Positions 1 through 9,000 of a stretch of 13,200 bases of DNA are shown piece after piece. Within the stretch, counting starts at the first letter, position 1, and the number at the start of each line of letters is the position of its first letter. This DNA is from an archaeon. Lineage in GTDB: Archaea; Iainarchaeota; Iainarchaeia; Iainarchaeales; 1-14-0-10-31-34. Position numbers: made by a program. Location of the stretch: contig JBDRIL010000007.1 of the NCBI GenBank assembly GCA_043815885.1, forward strand, positions 1-13,200. The letters run 5' to 3'.

Positions 1-3000
1 TTTTAGGTTGTCGTTACTGGAATCATAGTAGCTTATGTGTGGTTTGTCATTACTGTCTATTGCTATTGAGGTAAATTCTCCTACAAACCCCCCACTGTCC
101 ACTGTTTCTGTGTGCCATTGGTTTCCGTCGTGATAGGCATATTTAAGGTCTGCTCCTTTACCTGTAGAACCATAATAGCTTATGTGTGGTTTGTCATTAC
201 TGTCTAATGCAATAGAAGTATCAAGTCCCACGTTTCCTGTATTGTCTACTGTTTCTGTATTCCAAGTGCTTCCATTATAATAGGCATGTTTTAATGCAGT
301 ATTTGTGGAATCTTGATAGCTTATGTGTGGGTTATTGCTACTGTCCAAAGCAATGGATGTATAGTCTCCCACGTCTCCTTCACTATCTATTGTTTCTATG
401 TCCCAATCGCTTCCATTATAATAAGCGTATTTTAGGTCTCCGTTAGTGGAATCATAGTAGCTTATGTGTGGTTTGTCGTTGCCATCCAATGCAATAGATG
501 TAAACCACCCTACATAACCTGTGCTGTCTACTATTTCTATATTCCATTGGCTTCCGTCATGATAAGCATATTTTAGGTCTCCATTGCTACCGTCATAGTA
601 ACTTGTATGGGGGTTATCATTACTATCCAAAGCAAGAGATGGGAAAGATCCCACATAACCGTCACTATCTACAGTCTCTATATGCCACGCAAGGCCTTTA
701 TCGGTTGTGTCGGGTATTGGGTTATTGATTGGAGTTAGTTTTGCGAATCCGGTTGTAAATGTAATGCTGAGTAATAAGATTAATGAAATTAGTATTGTTG
801 AAGTGATTTTTTTATTCATGTTTTTTTATCCCTCCAGAAGAGTAAATTATTCATTAATTAATCCTGTATTAATAGTGTGGGATTATGTTTAAAAATAGGG
901 TTTTTTCTTTTAATGATTGAATTAATTGCATGGACTATTTTTTCTTTTTTATTTAAAAAATTGGTTTTATTGTTCTGCTTGTTTTTTTCTTTAATAGAAT
1001 TATTGCCCTTCGTTGTTTGACGTAATAATGAGTTTTTATTTTTTTCTATTGAATTTATGTATATAGGGGGTTGTGGGAAGAAAGTATTCTTTTTTTATGA
1101 GCAATAGGTTGTTTTTATGGCTGACACGATGCGTATTTCATTATCTTTTGCAAACGATTTAAACGCTAATGGTTTTGATTTTTTTGTGTCAGTTCCTTGT
1201 TCTTTTTTAAAGAATCTTTTGTTGGTTTTGGACAAAGAAGAGAAATTGATTTATGCTAACAGGGAAGATGAAGCTCTTGGAATGGCTTGTGGTGCTTATT
1301 TAGCTGGCAGAAAGCCTGTTGTGTTAGTACAGACTTCTGGTTTTCTTCAATTGTTGAATGGCTTGCATTCATTGAACATGATTTACGGGATTCCTGTCTT
1401 GTTGATAGTTTCTTGGCGTGGTTTTAATGGAAATGATTCCATAGAACATAAGGTTACTGGAAAGAATTTTTTGAAGATTTTGAGGGCATCAAAAATCAAT
1501 TATTTTGTTTTAAACAAAAGAAATTACCTTAATGCGTGTGGAGAAGCAAATAAATTTCTTCAAAGGAATAAACAGCCATTTGTTTTGGTTGTGAAGAAAG
1601 GTGTTTTTGGTGAATAGACAAGACGTAATTGAAATCGTATTGAAAAACACTGGAAAAAATGACTTGATTGTTTCTTGTAGTGGCTTTACTAGTAGGAGCT
1701 TGTTTTCTTTGAGAGACCGTAAAATGAATTTTTATATGCTTGGTTCAATGGGTCTTGCTAGTTCCATTGGCTTGGGATATGCTTTGTGCAAACCAAGGCA
1801 AAAAGTTTATGTTTTAGATGGTGATGCAAATATTTTAATGAATTTAGCTAGTCTTTTATCTGTAGGCAAGTTGAATCCAAAAAACTTTATTCACGTACTT
1901 TTAGATAACGAAGTTAATGAATCTACTGGCGGGCAACCAACTCTTTCAAGAGAAGTGGACATCGAAAAAATTGCTGGCATTGCTAATTACGGTTTTGTTA
2001 AAAAAGTGAAAACAATAACCCAGCTTAGAAAAGCATTAAGAACAGCAAGAAAGACAGGTCCTTCATTTATTCTTGCTAAAATTGAAATAGAAAGAATTTT
2101 CGATTGTCCGAGAATTAGTGTTGAACCAACAGAAATTTCTTCTAGAATTCGAAGGGAGTTTAAGTGAAAAGGTGTTGGAATGAAGTTGTTTGAAAACATA
2201 ACAGGAAAACCAATTATGCTGGCAGGAGCCCATAATGGCTTGAGTGCCAAAATAGTTGAAGAATGTTCATTTCATGGCGTGTGGGCAAGTGGCTTTGAGA
2301 TTTCTGCTTCGTATTGCCTGCCTGATGCCAATATCTTGTCTATGAATGAAGTTTTAAACAGGGTTAAGGAAATGGTTAGTGCCGTGAAAATCCCAATAAT
2401 TGCTGACTGTGATAATGGTTTTGGGAATGCAGTAAAAGTCATTAAAACAGTGCAAGGTTTTGAGGGAGTTGGGGTTTCAGGAATCTGTATTGAAGACAAT
2501 GTGTTTCCAAAGAGATGCAGTCTGTACAACGGCTTTAGAAGGCGTCTTGAATCAATTGAGGAATTTTCTGAAAAAATTAAAGTAGCAGTTGAAACAAAAA
2601 CTAACAACAATTTCATGCTAATTGCGAGGACAGAGGCATTAATAGCAGGCTTAGGAATGAAAGAAGCCCTAAAAAGAGCTAAAGCCTATGAAGAAGCTGG
2701 CGCAGACGCTGTTTTGATTCATTCCAAGCAAGAAAATCCATTAGAAGTCATTGAGTTTGCTGAAAAGTGGAAGGGCAGCATTCCTTTAGTTGCAGTGCCA
2801 ACCACTTATTCTTCAATTTCAGCTAAAGAACTTTATAATAAGGGCTTTAAAATCGTTATTTTTGCAAATCACGCTATAAGGTCTTCTGTTAAAGCAATGA
2901 AAAACAATTTAAGTGAATTAAAAAAAACGGGTTGCATTAGTTCCATAGAAGCCAAAATAGCTCCTGTCGAGGAAGTTTTTTCTTTGACAGGCTTGGATGA

Positions 3001-6000: not shown

Positions 6001-9000
6001 TGAGATTGGCGTGGGAGAAATGAGTGGACAGCCAATGTATGTTGATTGGAGGACATCCAATTTTACTTTGGCTGACCTTGAAGACGAAATAAAGGTTTTG
6101 TCAAGGTATGTTGACCTTATAATGGCTAGGGTTTACAAAAACGAGGATTTACAGGTAATGAAAAAATACAGTGAAGTGCCAATAATAAATGGTTTATGTA
6201 ATTTCTATCATCCTTGCCAAGGTCTTGCTGATTACATGACGATAGCTGAATATTATGGCGGTTTTGATGGATTGAGGATTACTTATATTGGGGATGGAAA
6301 TAATGTGTGTAATTCTCTTATAAATGGGGCAATAAAGGCAGGAATGCATATAACTGTCGCGCATCCTTTGGGGCATGAACCAAAAAAAGAGGTAGTTGAA
6401 GAAGCCAGGAAAAGGAAACTTATAACTCTTACTCAGTCACCTGAAGAGGCAGTTAAAGATGCAGACATAGTTTACACTGATACCTGGATTTCAATGGGCC
6501 AAGAAAACCAAAAAGAAGAAAGAATTAAAGCATTCCAAAGGTATTCTATTACAAAGAAGTTGCTTGAACATGCTCCAGAGCATACACTAATAATGCATTG
6601 TCTTCCGGCACACAGAGGCTATGAAATAGATGGAAACGTGATTGAGTCAGGGAATTCAATTATTTTTGATCAGGCAGAAAACAGGAAGCACGTTCAAAAA
6701 TACTTAATGCTTAATGTTTTAGAGCTAGTTTAATTAGCTTAGTTTTTTAATTTAAACATTAAGTTTTTTTGTTGCTGAAATAATAGCCTTTCTATTGTTT
6801 ATTTTTCTTTATTTTCTTCAGGTAGTTGGCATAGCTCTTACAAATCAGTTTCTTGTCTTTTTCTTCTATTTTTCTCACTACTTTTCCAGGAGAACCCATT
6901 ACTACGGAATGAGAGAGAATTTTGGTGTTAGGGGTTACAACGCTTCCTGCAGCAATAATGCTCCATTCACCTATTTCTGCTCCGTCCAGAATAGTGGAAT
7001 TAATTCCAATCAAGCAATTGTCTCCAATCCTTGCCCCGTGTATTACTGCTGCATGCCCTACAGTAACATTTTCTCCGATAAAGACATTGTTTCCATGGAT
7101 TACTGTTCCTTCCTGAATGGAGGAATTCCTTCCAATAACTATTTTTCCTTCGTCTGCCCTGATTACAGCAAAAGCCCAGACAGAGACATTTTCTCCTAAT
7201 TCAACTTCTCCTTCAATTAATGCCTTTGAATGAATGAAACCCATAGCTAAACCCAATTATTAAAGAAGATAAGTAATAATTTAAGCTTAATCCAATTATA
7301 ATTCTAGAAAGGTTGTTTTTATGAAGCTGAAATTCCTTGGAGGAGCAAGAGAAGTAGGAAAAAGCTCTTTTCTGTTGGATGCAGGAGACAAGATTCTGCT
7401 GGACAGAGGAGTGAAGTTAGGGCATTCATCCCTCTCTTTTCCTTTGGCAGTGAAAGCAAATTTAAAGGCAGCAATAATCTCTCACGCTCACTTGGATCAT
7501 TCTGGTGCATTGCCTGAATTATTCAATACAGGCAATACAATGGTTTACATGACTTCTCCGACCCTTGACTTAAGTGAAATGCTCTGGAGAGACACAATAA
7601 AGATAGCAGAAATAGAAGGCCAAACAAAAAAGTATTCAATGGATGAAGTAAAGAAAACAGAGAGATTCACTTTTCCCATTAATTACAGGAAGAAGGTTCA
7701 GATAACTGATGAAATAATGATGGAATTCTTTGATGCAGGCCACATCATTGGTTCAGCAATAACCAAGTTATGGTATAAAAACAAGAGTCTGGTTTACACC
7801 GGAGACTTTCATTTAAGGGAAACAAGGCTATTGAATGGAGCAGACACAAGGATAGGGAAAACAGATTACCTGATAATTGAAAGCACGTATGGAGACAGGC
7901 ACCATGAAAAAAGAAAAACCCTGGAAAAAAGGTTTGTTGAATCAGTCCAGGACACAATAAATAAAGGCGGATGGGCAATAGTTCCAGCCTTTGCTGTGGG
8001 AAGAAGCCAGGAAATACTGGATATACTGCATGAATACAAGATTGAAGCACCAATATTTTTTGATGGAATGGGCCAAAAGGCTTCAGCTATCTCTCTCCGT
8101 TACCCTGAATTCCTGAAAGACCCGAAGTTTTTAGGAAATGCACTTCATGCAGCCAACTGGGTAAAGGGAAGGAACAGGAGCAAGGCACTGAAAGAACCAT
8201 CAATAATAGTTACTTCAGCGGGAATGTTGGAAGGAGGACCGGTAATATTTTATTTAAGCAAGTTATTTGATGACAAGAATTCAAAGGTATTCCTTACAGG
8301 CTATCAGGTGGAAGGAACGAATGGAAGGAATTTATTGGAAAAAGGAGTAATTAATTTAGACGGAGAAAAGGTAAAGGTAAACACTGAAGTAGAGTTATAT
8401 GAATTCAGTGCTCATGCAGAGCAAAATGAATTGCTTGAATTAATCCAGAAACTTGAACCAGAAAAAGTCTTTTTAGTTCATGGAGACGAAGAAGTAATAG
8501 AGGTATTTGCCAAAGAGGTAAAGGCATTGGGTTTTGAGGCAGTAAAGCCAAGGAATGGAGAAGAAATTGAATTAAAGTAAAGGGTGGGCAAAAATAAGGG
8601 GCTTCTTTATTTCTTTGATTGATTCCTTTAAAGCATTAAAGGACAATCCAAAACTATTTCTTCCAAAAATATTTCTTGCACTCGTATGGAGTGTCTTCCT
8701 GATTTATACTGGAACATTATTCATTCAGTTAATGGAAATAAGGGAAATAAATTTAACTACTGGAAACCATGCACTAATTCAAGCAAGCCTTGCCTCACTC
8801 CTTCAGGGATTAGCGGTTCTTTTAGTTTTGACCATTATTTTTTTCCTTATTGACACAATAATTAATGCCTCTTATCCATTCATGGTTAAATCTTATTACA
8901 GGAGAGAAAGAATTTCTTTCTCTGAAAGCATTTCAATGGTGTTAAAAAACTTCTCTTCAATAGTACTCCCAATAATCCTTGCCTTTCTTTTGTCTCTGGC

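What a model noticed while it worked through the whole genome (the two positions that open the first line are those of the whole stretch)
1117..6733. Horizontally acquired phosphonoacetate-type phosphonate operon with a new BioD-like ligase family and an in-cluster orni [...]
C7 carries a tight six-gene operon: split phosphonopyruvate decarboxylase (g00132/133), PEP mutase (g00134), a PhnY-like aldehyde dehydrogenase (g00135), a 426-aa protein of no Pfam family (g00136) and a canonical ornithine carbamoyltransferase (g00137). g00136 founds an unnamed family (beta-rich N-domain + dethiobiotin-synthetase/CTP-synthase-like P-loop amidoligase domain) that sits next to pepM/ppd in every bacterial genome locus found. 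The operon is unique among 196 Iainarchaeales genomes. Hypothesis: PEP -> phosphonopyruvate -> phosphonoacetaldehyde -> phosphonoacetate, which g00136 ligates to an amine; the extra OTCase marks the target or the amine donor, i.e. an N-phosphonoacetyl-orni [...]
Evidence so far: Gene table and Swiss-Prot hits: PepM 43-46% to characterised PEP mutases, PhnY 33%; genes overlap or are 1-13 nt apart. g00136: no Pfam over cut-off, weak P-loop hits only; 37 homologues in 5.8e9 clusters, all 'hypothetical' or 'BioD'; model pLDDT 88, pTM 0.88; best PDB folds dethiobiotin synthetase 3of5/1dts and CTP synthase synthetase domain over ~235-275 columns, E 1e-6..1e-4. Linkage: in 11 of 11 genome loci (Acidobacteriaceae, Scytonema, Pandoraea) and 5 of 7 metagenome loci tblastn finds ppd and/or pepM within 4 kb of the g00136 homologue. 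One 72%-GC metagenome contig has homologue - OTCase - ppdB, and that OTCase is 61% identical to g00137 but 40% to the second OTCase-like gene g00318 [...]
(Added by a program. Inside this text positions count along the whole contig: contig position 1 is position 1 of the stretch shown here. "Call 12" and the like, gene names such as g00115 and contig names such as C1 are that model's own, and its searches are not shown. The text may have been shortened before it was handed on; [...] marks where a part breaks off. The agent that wrote the report below was given it as the finding of a first reader that could run no searches.)

Follow-up and report, generated by a model that had tools for sequence, protein, structure and literature searches.

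The report
Archaeal phosphonate operon with extra OTCase
A tiny groundwater archaeon has picked up a six-gene set that probably builds a phosphonate compound and attaches it to an amino acid, using an unstudied enzyme that travels together with a spare copy of an arginine-pathway enzyme, which hints at a natural inhibitor of that enzyme.

Summary
The six-gene operon is real (1117-6733, + strand): split TPP decarboxylase, PEP-mutase-like enzyme, PhnY-like aldehyde dehydrogenase, an unnamed 426-aa protein (g136) and an ornithine carbamoyltransferase (OTCase). New here: (1) g136 is not an orphan. It is a sister branch (hhalign probability 100%, E 5e-59) of a larger unnamed family that sits between argG and argC in arginine operons and replaces ArgJ; a 2026 preprint predicts that family to be an alternative N-succinylglutamate synthase. 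So g136 most likely N-acylates an amino acid. (2) The g136-OTCase pair is inherited as a unit: OTCase directly follows the homologue in the window and 3 of 12 metagenome loci, with indirect evidence for four more, and the two trees agree. The host keeps its lineage-typical OTCase elsewhere. (3) The PEP mutase lacks the diagnostic EDKx5NS motif (EDNVFPKRCS), as does a large clade, so standard pepM mining would miss these clusters. (4) Synteny with 8 of 8 family relatives breaks exactly at the operon. The product is still inferred: only 2 of 14 loci carry the aldehyde dehydrogenase. Leading reading: an N-phosphonoacetyl amino acid, possibly an N-phosphonoacetyl-ornithine-like OTCase inhibitor, with the OTCase as self-protection.

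The parts
820..1116 (.). A+T-rich intergenic region upstream of the operon; presumed promoter region (inferred, not tested)
   Evidence: Sequence read. Contigs of two runs diverge from the window at 828-974 (loose ends).
1117..1617 (+). TPP decarboxylase, alpha part (phosphonopyruvate/sulfopyruvate decarboxylase family)
   Evidence: PF02776 41.2 bits. TIGR03845 111.5 and TIGR03297 105 bits, both under their cut-offs.
1601..2167 (+). TPP decarboxylase, beta part
   Evidence: PF02775 54.2 bits. TIGR03297 179.9 and TIGR03846 162.4 bits, both under their cut-offs.
2180..3079 (+). PEP-mutase-like enzyme with the non-canonical motif EDNVFPKRCS
   Evidence: PF13714 192.9 bits. TIGR02320 301 < 319.55. 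Motif seen. PDB: phosphonopyruvate hydrolase 2dua 253 bits, PEP mutase 5unc 252.6 bits.
3086..4480 (+). Aldehyde dehydrogenase, closest to phosphonoacetaldehyde dehydrogenase PhnY
   Evidence: PF00171 371.9 bits. TIGR03250 388.4 < 635.65. Best PDB hit 4i3t at 260 bits, with ELGG and GQRCT aligned.
4477..5757 (+). g136: unnamed two-domain protein. It has a beta-rich N-domain (1-~165) with no solved look-alike and a SIMIBI-class P-loop domain closest to DTBS and CTP synthase. It is a sister of the arg-operon 'X' family.
5759..6733 (+). Second, cluster-borne ornithine carbamoyltransferase (ATG 5759; an upstream TTG at 5723 is also in frame)
   Evidence: TIGR00658 352.1 > 280.85. STRTR, HPCQ, SMG and HCLP motifs present. 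43% identical to the genome's other OTCase on C14.
6734..6791 (.). T-rich stretch after the last gene; likely end of the transcript (inferred)
   Evidence: Sequence read. The next gene (6792-7256) is on the opposite strand.

Best explanation
This is a transferred biosynthetic operon. The inferred steps are as follows.

1. A variant PEP mutase plus a split TPP decarboxylase make phosphonoacetaldehyde.
2. The PhnY-like dehydrogenase oxidises it to phosphonoacetate.
3. g136 joins the phosphonoacetyl group to the amino group of an amino acid of the glutamate/ornithine family. It is a divergent sister of the enzyme family predicted to make N-succinylglutamate in arginine operons. The energy would come from ATP through its intact P-loop, or from a CoA thioester as in its relatives.
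4. The OTCase that is translationally coupled to g136 and co-inherited with it is an extra copy. It most likely protects the producer from, or marks the target of, an N-phosphonoacetyl-ornithine-like OTCase inhibitor.

Shown here: gene content, order and coupling; homology of g136 to the arginine-operon family; co-inheritance of g136 with OTCase; the extra-copy status of the OTCase; and the phyletic and syntenic signs of acquisition. Inferred: every chemical step, the amine, the product and the role of the OTCase.
For: - Operon anatomy.
- g136 versus 'X' of G153: 28% identity over 297 residues, E 5e-20. Profile against profile: probability 100%, E 4.8e-59, 329 columns across both domains.
- X sits in argG-X-argC-argD-argF'-argB-argE-argH in G153.
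- X is found in 119 of 401 Acidobacteriota genomes. In the 30 best loci it is flanked by argC in 29 and by argG in 23, on the same strand.
- ArgJ is found in 120 of the same 401 genomes, but in only 4 of the 119 with X. ArgJ and ArgA over cut-off are absent from 5 of 5 X genomes tested.
- OTCase lies directly behind the g136 homologue in the window, L060 (61% identical), L061 (50%) and L062 (72%). A Micrarchaeota MAG has consecutive accessions for the pair. Three more pairs share a contig length.
- The g136 and OTCase trees show the same groupings.
- The host's C14 OTCase matches the single copy of its family relatives, 42-44% identical to the cluster copy.
- A phosphonate cluster that carries a copy of its target enzyme as resistance has a precedent: flavophos and lumazine synthase (bioRxiv 10.64898/2026.01.15.699783; abstract read).
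Against: - The aldehyde dehydrogenase is present in only 2 of 14 loci (window and L061). The archaeal-like L062 has none in 20 kb. Phosphonoacetate therefore cannot be the general substrate unless a dehydrogenase is borrowed from elsewhere.
- The relatives of g136 are thought to use acyl-CoA, and the window encodes no CoA ligase. The dehydrogenase keeps the ELGG glutamate typical of hydrolytic enzymes.
- The mutase lacks EDKx5NS. All three 'phosphonate' enzymes are under their NCBIfam cut-offs.
- The cluster OTCase keeps every canonical substrate motif. Its unusual 80s loop is shared by OTCases that are the only copy in other genomes. Nothing in the sequence marks it as inhibitor-resistant.
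- Linked OTCases are not one clade among the 124 sequences compared (at least 5 changes).
- Six of 13 related loci carry an AMP-binding enzyme instead of OTCase.
- No product has been observed.
Confidence: 0.4

Rival explanations
1. The OTCase is a working part of the pathway, not a shield. Either it releases ornithine from citrulline for g136 to acylate, or it otherwise acts with g136, echoing arginine operons where the X family and an acylornithine carbamoyltransferase work in one pathway.
For: - The genome has carbamate kinase but no argG or arcA match, so ornithine would come from citrulline or arginine breakdown.
- g136 and OTCase are translationally coupled in 4 of 4 loci seen directly.
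- X and argF' share an operon in G153.
- All substrate motifs of the OTCase are intact.
Against: - The host already has an OTCase on C14.
- The cluster enzyme scores as OTCase (357.8 bits), not as acetylornithine carbamoyltransferase (142.7 < 288). It therefore should not take an N-alpha-acylated ornithine; that OTCase needs the free alpha-amino group is recalled knowledge.
Confidence: 0.22
2. g136 does not handle phosphonoacetate. It acts on phosphonoacetaldehyde or another early intermediate, or on the phosphonate group itself (for example as a kinase). The aldehyde dehydrogenase and the OTCase are accessories of some clusters only.
For: - g136 lies next to ppd and/or pepM in 10 of 13 related loci, but next to an aldehyde dehydrogenase in only 1 of them plus the window.
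- The P-loop domain matches kinases and GTPases almost as well as ligases: Z 13.5-15.4 for DTBS, CTP synthase, HypB, TM0796 and ParF. The best profile hit in the PDB is the Clp1 kinase P-loop at E 0.005.
Against: The closest homologous family by far is the arginine-operon X family, whose predicted chemistry is N-acylation of an amino acid. No aminotransferase or reductase that would supply another substrate was seen in the flanks.
Confidence: 0.2
3. The operon is not a phosphonate pathway. The mutase-like protein has another activity of the PEP mutase/isocitrate lyase superfamily, and the decarboxylase and dehydrogenase act on sulfopyruvate and sulfoacetaldehyde or a similar 3-substituted pyruvate. 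Alternatively, the genes are catabolic.
For: - The motif is EDNVFPKRCS instead of EDKx5NS, with the KRC of lyase members.
- The protein scores equally against phosphonopyruvate hydrolase and PEP mutase.
- The alpha subunit scores slightly better as sulfopyruvate decarboxylase (111.5 against 105 bits), and the dehydrogenase also matches SafD at 303 bits.
Against: - PEP mutase is the best NCBIfam model (301 bits), just under its cut-off.
- 91 of 119 closest homologues share N..CS, and many are fused to the nucleotidyltransferase domain PF12804. That this fusion is typical of phosphonate biosynthesis is recalled knowledge.
- Related g136 loci with a canonical EDK..NS mutase exist (L063, L066, L067).
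- No sulfopyruvate-forming gene and no phosphonoacetate hydrolase was seen in the window.
Confidence: 0.08

Closest known systems
[quoted passage not shown]
   Same: The two-domain build is the same (beta-rich N-domain plus P-loop domain). Homology to the arginine-operon X family studied here is clear: probability 100%, 329 columns. X occupies the same operon position and shows the same exclusion of the usual enzyme as the preprint describes. Shared conserved residues include the GKT P-loop, the K-x-x-G-T-G motif, TTY/STY and E-x-G-G.
   Different: - g136 is 28% identical to X.
- g136 has an extra ~55-residue N-terminal segment with the GISSMxRDL motif and a longer C-terminus.
- g136 has a nearly invariant Cys96 where X has Gly.
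- g136 sits in PEP-mutase clusters, never in an arginine operon, in the 14 loci seen.
- I could not compare X with ACG33_RS14135 itself because its sequence was not to hand, so their identity as one family is inferred from the description.
- No member of either family has been assayed.
Dethiobiotin synthetase (BioD) and the synthetase domain of CTP synthase
   Same: These are the best structural matches of the C-terminal domain: 3of5 Z 15.4, rmsd 3.2 A, 188 residues; 4zdj Z 15.3. The P-loop is of the GTxTDxGKT type, followed by K-x-S-G (the BioD motif is recalled).
   Different: TIGR00347 scores 21.4 bits against a cut-off of 83.3. Only the P-loop aligns by sequence. The fold match is tied within 1.5 Z with HypB, TM0796, MinD and ParA-type proteins. 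The N-domain has no counterpart in BioD.
Phosphonoacetate-derived natural products: O-phosphonoacetic acid serine and fosfazinomycin
   Same: The early steps are PEP mutase, decarboxylase and oxidation to phosphonoacetate. Phosphonoacetate is an intermediate in only these two characterised pathways (PMC8942020; passages read).
   Different: No g136-like enzyme and no OTCase is described in the passages I read (0 occurrences of 'carbamoyltransferase' or 'dethiobiotin' in that paper). Here the host is a DPANN archaeon and the mutase motif is non-canonical.
Biosynthetic clusters that carry a copy of their target enzyme: flavophos with lumazine synthase; phaseolotoxin with the resistant OTCase ArgK (the latter recalled, not read)
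   Same: A second copy of a housekeeping enzyme is embedded in, and co-inherited with, a small-molecule cluster. For flavophos, the in-cluster copy or orthologues gave resistance (abstract).
   Different: Here neither the product nor any inhibition or protection has been shown. The cluster OTCase shows no obvious active-site change.
N-delta-phosphonoacetyl-L-ornithine (PALO), the synthetic bisubstrate inhibitor of OTCase (recalled; two OTCase papers that mention 'phosphonoacetyl' appeared only as search listings)
   Same: It would be the direct product of joining phosphonoacetate to the delta-amino group of ornithine, the two moieties that the operon's gene content points to.
   Different: It is not known as a natural product. 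My searches found no paper linking pepM or phosphonate natural products with OTCase. The relatives of g136 acylate an alpha-amino group, not a delta-amino group.

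Membership tests
PEP mutase (PepM/Ppm) | Match to Pfam PEP_mutase PF13714 | tested here: met
   192.9 bits against a cut-off of 31.5, covering 232 of 240 profile positions.
PEP mutase (PepM/Ppm) | NCBIfam equivalog TIGR02320 over its curated cut-off | tested here: not met
   301 bits < 319.55. It is still the best-scoring model.
PEP mutase (PepM/Ppm) | Ppm-specific motif EDKx5NS, used as a filter in genome mining (PMC8942020) | tested here: not met
   The window has EDNVFPKRCS. 91 of 119 closest homologues also have N..CS, and 6 have K..NS.
PEP mutase (PepM/Ppm) | Converts PEP to phosphonopyruvate | not testable with these tools
   Only context speaks for it: a phosphonopyruvate-decarboxylase-like gene pair lies directly upstream.
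Phosphonopyruvate decarboxylase (Ppd) | NCBIfam TIGR03297 over cut-off, and distinction from sulfopyruvate decarboxylase | tested here: inconclusive
   The protein is split. The halves score 105 and 179.9 bits against a whole-protein cut-off of 312.5. The sulfopyruvate decarboxylase models score 111.5 and 162.4, also under their cut-offs.
Phosphonoacetaldehyde dehydrogenase (PhnY) | NCBIfam TIGR03250 over cut-off | tested here: not met
   388.4 < 635.65. It is the best of 44 models, and the best PDB hit is 4i3t.
Phosphonoacetaldehyde dehydrogenase (PhnY) | Catalytic Cys and Glu, and basic residues near them, as in the solved PhnY | tested here: met
   ELGG, GQRCT, FNHP and YR-E-PFGG align with 4i3t. 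Which of these bind the phosphonate is recalled, not read.
Ornithine carbamoyltransferase | NCBIfam TIGR00658 / NF001986 over cut-off | tested here: met
   352.1 > 280.85 and 357.8 > 306.
Ornithine carbamoyltransferase | Substrate motifs STRTR, HPxQ, DxxxSMG and HCLP | tested here: met
   All are present in the alignment with 1a1s and in 124 aligned sequences. Lys replaces the Arg of DTARVL in the window (DEIKVL), as in several relatives.
Dethiobiotin synthetase (BioD) | NCBIfam TIGR00347 over cut-off; single-domain ~220-aa protein | tested here: not met
   21.4 < 83.3 bits, P-loop only. The protein has 426 aa with an extra N-domain.
Arginine-operon X family (predicted alternative N-succinylglutamate synthase) | Sequence homology over both domains | tested here: met
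   hhalign probability 100%, E 4.8e-59, 329 columns. Pairwise E 5e-20.
Arginine-operon X family (predicted alternative N-succinylglutamate synthase) | Position inside an arginine biosynthesis operon | tested here: not met
   g136 and its 13 held relatives lie in PEP-mutase clusters or on short contigs, none beside argC or argG. g136 is a separate branch: the best X matches score E 1e-64 to 1e-85 with the X profile, while the g136 homologue of G196 scores 1.5e-52.
DUF1611 (PF07755) | Pfam match over cut-off | tested here: not met
   There is no PF07755 hit for g136 at E<=0.01. 6 of 32 X-family members hit it weakly (best E 1.9e-5). The DUF1611 structure 2g0t aligns at Z 13.9 on the P-loop domain only.
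Cluster with a target-copy self-resistance gene | A second copy of a housekeeping enzyme, inside and co-inherited with the cluster | tested here: met
   There are two OTCases over cut-off in the genome. Family relatives have one, of the C14 type. The trees are congruent.
Cluster with a target-copy self-resistance gene | The product inhibits that enzyme and the copy protects the producer | not testable with these tools
   No product is known. No sequence mark of resistance was found.

The most novel reading that the evidence does not exclude
DPANN archaea and several bacteria make a natural N-phosphonoacetyl-ornithine-type bisubstrate inhibitor of ornithine carbamoyltransferase. Until now such a compound has been known only as a synthetic enzymology tool. 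The amide-forming enzyme would have been recruited from the arginine pathway's own alternative N-acylglutamate synthase, and the cluster would carry a spare OTCase as immunity. The clusters would have stayed invisible because their PEP mutase fails the motif filter used in phosphonate genome mining.
Probability: 0.2. Interest if true: 0.85.

Novelty: new variant of a known kind. Interest (0 to 1): 0.72.

Why it matters
- If the reading holds, this is a phosphonate antimetabolite pathway in a tiny-genome archaeon, built around an enzyme family with no assayed member.
- The likely target, OTCase together with carbamate kinase, may be central to energy gain in such organisms.
- The work ties an orphan protein to a family that appears to fill the missing first step of arginine synthesis in about 30% of the Acidobacteriota genomes sampled.
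- It shows that a large clade of PEP-mutase-like genes (EDNxFPKRCS) is excluded by the standard EDKx5NS filter. Surveys of phosphonate biosynthesis may therefore undercount.
- It gives a concrete, cheap experiment: six genes, one small product.

Tried and rejected
- The genome-contig scan with the full g136 alignment was swamped by generic P-loop patterns. Only 1 of 50 loci (L001) was a true relative. I then used an N-domain-only alignment for the metagenome scan.
- The N-domain alone gave no Foldseek PDB match at E<=0.001 (best 0.22) and no VIA-align match above Z 3.3 among 48,161 chains.
- Complex prediction of g136 with the OTCase gave no verdict (score 0.00, mark 0.32). This is neither for nor against binding.
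- Composition gave no transfer signal.
- I asked whether the unusual 80s loop (DWRTSNFTLAD) marks a resistant OTCase. Rejected: all 119 closest OTCases have it, and so do 11 of 11 best in-order OTCases, each the only match in its genome.
- I asked whether the linked OTCases form one clade. Rejected: at least 5 changes on the tree, although the context of most rows is unknown.
- The 401-aa unknown in L062 is not a hidden aldehyde dehydrogenase. The ESM Atlas points to SelO/MchC-like proteins, as a lead only.
- Earlier findings of this scan held nothing on this operon.
- Literature searches for a natural phosphonoacetyl-ornithine, or for pepM together with OTCase, found nothing relevant. Searches for 'DUF1611' and 'DgcN' were uninformative.
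- In read laying, parts without cover in runs X2 and X3 are not interpreted.

Full report
**1. What is there**

The window is the whole 13.2-kb contig C7 of a 1.16-Mb, 62-contig genome (GC 0.368; completeness 91.7%). Six ORFs lie on the + strand from 1117 to 6733:
- Two halves of a TPP decarboxylase (PF02776 and PF02775).
- A PEP_mutase-family protein.
- An aldehyde dehydrogenase.
- A 426-aa protein with no Pfam family over its cut-off (g136).
- An ornithine carbamoyltransferase (OTCase) that passes both NCBIfam OTCase cut-offs.

The genes overlap or are at most 12 nt apart. g136 starts at an ATGA overlap with the dehydrogenase stop. The OTCase ATG at 5759 lies one base after the g136 stop, behind a GGGGAGG. 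T-rich runs follow the last stop, and the next gene is convergent.

**2. Is the contig sound, and was the operon acquired?**

Evidence that the contig belongs to this lineage:
- Downstream of the operon, the block beta-CASP nuclease / unknown / NMD3 / HTH protein is conserved in the same order in 8 of 8 genomes of the same family (58-82% amino-acid identity).

Evidence that the operon was acquired:
- None of those 8 genomes has the operon, the hexapeptide-repeat gene or the BNR gene in the 4-11 kb fetched upstream. Synteny breaks at about 7300.
- Across the order, a PEP-mutase match occurs in 2 of 196 genomes (G000 and G056, the latter a 451-aa frame). The g136 family occurs in 1 of 196, plus one remote relative in G153.

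Evidence against an assembly chimera:
- Logan contigs of a groundwater run cover all 30 bins of the window. One 1162-base contig bridges 6627-7788, across the operon/native junction. That run may be the source sample.
- Two runs of a second study hold short, near-identical pieces of both the operon and the native part.

Composition gives no signal: operon GC is 0.349, the 9.5th percentile of 5.6-kb windows. Acquisition is thus supported by phyletic pattern and synteny, not by composition.

**3. The 'phosphonate' enzymes are near, not inside, their named families**

- The mutase scores 301 bits on TIGR02320 (cut-off 319.55). It is equidistant from solved phosphonopyruvate hydrolase (253 bits) and PEP mutase (252.6 bits).
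- In place of the EDKx5NS motif it has EDNVFPKRCS. Genome-mining studies use that motif as a filter (PMC8942020; passages).
- This is not an oddity of one gene. 91 of its 119 closest homologues have N..CS and only 6 have K..NS. Many are fused to the nucleotidyltransferase domain PF12804.
- Among g136-linked loci, the window and L062 have EDN..CS, L001 and L070 have EDS..SS, L061 has EDQ..NS, and L063, L066 and L067 have the canonical motif.
- The decarboxylase halves score about equally as phosphonopyruvate and sulfopyruvate decarboxylase, all under their cut-offs.
- The dehydrogenase is closest to PhnY (388 bits; cut-off 636; best PDB hit 4i3t) and keeps ELGG and GQRCT.

A phosphonate route remains the most economical reading, but none of its steps passes a curated test.

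**4. g136**

Sequence searches:
- They are well conserved (mean column identity 47%). Motifs include GISSMxRDL, METLWG, GVLCERxSTK, AQxGGIG, GTxTDVGKTT, KASGTGWYED, LPTTY and EHGGD.
- An exhaustive phmmer search finds 513 cluster representatives at E<=1e-3. Eighteen are below 1e-30. The rest are mostly 340-370-aa proteins aligned over residues ~55-370, that is, both domains.
- These have no Pfam family over cut-off either, only weak CbiA, DUF1611, MobB or AAA_26 P-loop hits.

Structure:
- The AF2 model is confident (pLDDT 90.7).
- The C-terminal domain is a SIMIBI-class P-loop fold. It is closest to dethiobiotin synthetase (Z 15.4) and CTP synthase (Z 15.3). However, it is tied within 1.5 Z with HypB, the DUF1611 protein TM0796 and MinD/ParA proteins.
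- The N-domain, folded alone (pLDDT 88), has no look-alike among solved structures.

**5. The key new lead: the sister family lives in arginine operons**

- The one remote relative in the order (G153; here called 'X') is 28% identical to g136 (E 5e-20).
- It lies in the operon argG-X-argC-argD-argF' (acetylornithine-carbamoyltransferase model, 475 bits)-argB-argE-argH.
- A profile of 32 such proteins aligns with the g136 profile at probability 100%, E 4.8e-59, over 329 columns.
- That profile matches 119 of 401 Acidobacteriota genomes, nearly always once per genome.
- In the 30 best loci, X is flanked on the same strand by argC in 29 and by argG in 23. Without the unpublished G220 the counts are 28 and 22 of 29.
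- ArgJ is found in 120 of the same 401 genomes, but in only 4 of the 119 with a match. All four are low-scoring matches, one in the unpublished G348 and one with only an ArgJ fragment. Related genomes are not independent, so I give counts only.
- Five of 5 X genomes tested lack ArgJ, and lack ArgA over cut-off.
[quoted passage not shown] - I could not align X to that protein. That they are one family is inferred from the description.

The consequence for g136 is that its nearest kin most likely put an acyl group on the amino group of glutamate.

**6. g136 and OTCase travel together**

Of 13 related loci (L001 plus 12 metagenome loci):
- 10 have ppd and/or pepM beside the homologue.
- 3 (L060, L061, L062) have an OTCase directly downstream, 61%, 50% and 72% identical to the window's.
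- 6 have an AMP-binding enzyme there instead. Three of these six (L001, L066, L070) share a conserved 377-436-aa protein, which in L070 hits a GNAT-type acetyltransferase domain (PF13480), and two (L001, L066) also carry a carrier protein.
- 1 (L063) carries two ATP-grasp amino-acid ligases and an MFS transporter.

The closest OTCases in 5.8 billion clusters include:
- One with the GenBank accession adjacent to the Micrarchaeota g136 homologue (MFH1448172 and MFH1448173).
- Three on contigs of the same length and source as other homologues (5221; 67083, Scytonema; 11880).

The trees agree:
- The g136 tree and the OTCase tree both group the window with P0011/P0183, P0007/P0185 and P0012/P0184 (= L062).
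- Both put L061 with P0017/P0300.
- The linked OTCases are not one clade among 124 sequences, but the context of most rows is unknown.

The host has another OTCase on C14 (379.7 bits). This is the type that its family relatives have as their only copy, and it is 42-44% identical to the cluster enzyme. The genome has carbamate kinase but no argG or arcA match.

**7. What the OTCase does not show**

- It keeps STRTR, HPCQ, GDGNNV, DTWISMG and HCLP.
- Its unusual 80s loop (DWRTSNFTLAD) is shared by all 119 closest OTCases.
- The same loop is in 11 of 11 in-order OTCases that are the only match in their genomes.
- Nothing in its sequence therefore marks it as inhibitor-resistant.
- The flavophos precedent shows that a plain extra copy of the target can suffice (abstract).

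**8. Mechanism and its weak points**

The best reading (0.4) is: PEP to phosphonopyruvate to phosphonoacetaldehyde to phosphonoacetate; g136 then makes an N-phosphonoacetyl amino acid; the coupled OTCase is protection against, or the target marker of, an N-phosphonoacetyl-ornithine-like inhibitor.

Weak points:
- The aldehyde dehydrogenase is in only 2 of 14 loci.
- The kin of g136 are thought to use acyl-CoA, while the window has no CoA ligase and a hydrolytic-type dehydrogenase.
- Those kin acylate alpha-amino groups, whereas PALO is a delta-amide.
- No product is known.

Rivals: a biosynthetic OTCase (0.22), another substrate or chemistry for g136 (0.2), and a non-phosphonate or catabolic operon (0.08).

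**9. Novelty**

My searches found no paper that links pepM or phosphonate natural products with OTCase, or that reports a natural phosphonoacetyl-ornithine. The inventory of phosphonate branch points contains neither 'carbamoyltransferase' nor 'dethiobiotin'. The cluster is a new variant of a known kind, a phosphonate cluster with a possible target copy, built around an unassayed enzyme family.

Noticed in passing
L084 (G153:C1) 4998-6191; loci L088-L117: A ~350-400-aa unnamed family (X), homologous to g136, sits between argG and argC in arginine operons. This holds for one Iainarchaeales genome and for 30 of 30 Acidobacteriota loci examined (argC beside it in 29, argG in 23; L092 is from an unpublished genome). 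It is almost mutually exclusive with ArgJ: 4 of 119 genomes against 116 of 282. It is a likely alternative N-acylglutamate synthase, as a 2026 preprint predicts for a Steroidobacter protein.
   Followed up: partly
window 2180-3079; P0303-P0421: A large clade of PEP-mutase-like proteins carries EDNxFPKRCS instead of EDKx5NS (91 of 119 closest homologues). Many are fused to the nucleotidyltransferase domain PF12804. The usual motif filter for pepM mining would discard them.
   Followed up: partly
window 5759-6733; L073-L083: There is an OTCase subfamily with a one-residue-shorter 80s loop (DW[RK][TS][ST]N[FL]T...) in place of the usual Q-L-G-x-x-E-S. It is the only OTCase match in many Iainarchaeales genomes, while the window's own family uses an SLRTR / PLGKKES type.
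   Followed up: partly
L061 16471-17894; L062 15092-16315; L063 9537-10475: Related clusters lie beside mobility genes: a MobA/VirD2 relaxase plus a NikA/MobC-like protein (L061), a phage-type integrase (L062) and a DDE transposase (L063). This fits spread by mobile elements.
   Followed up: no
L061 13988-16316: The most complete relative (pepM-ppd-g136-OTCase-ALDH) continues with a B12-binding radical SAM enzyme and a GNAT acetyltransferase. This suggests further tailoring of the product in that organism.
   Followed up: no
L071 1048-3878: One 70%-GC contig has a g136 homologue with no pepM or ppd within 9.9 kb. It is divergently placed next to an adenylosuccinate-lyase-like gene (Lyase_1 / ADSL_C).
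   Followed up: no
L070 1752-2909 and 6919-7964: One Acidobacteria-type cluster carries two decarboxylase copies, one fused and one split, flanking the g136 / AMP-binding pair.
   Followed up: no
window 828-974: Contigs of two groundwater runs from different studies leave the window sequence at 828, 954 and 974, in the intergenic region just left of the operon. Summed depth on the left flank is higher than on the operon. Strain variants with another left junction, perhaps without the operon, are possible.
   Followed up: no
L056 (G056:C17:6807-7658): The only other PEP mutase in the order scores over the TIGR02320 cut-off (403.6 bits), has the canonical EDK..NS motif, lies in a 451-aa frame and has no g136 homologue in its genome. 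It is a separate, ordinary phosphonate gene.
   Followed up: partly
window 10110-10850 (- strand): The HTH protein downstream is unusually conserved across the family (72-82% identity) compared with its neighbours (37-67%).
   Followed up: no
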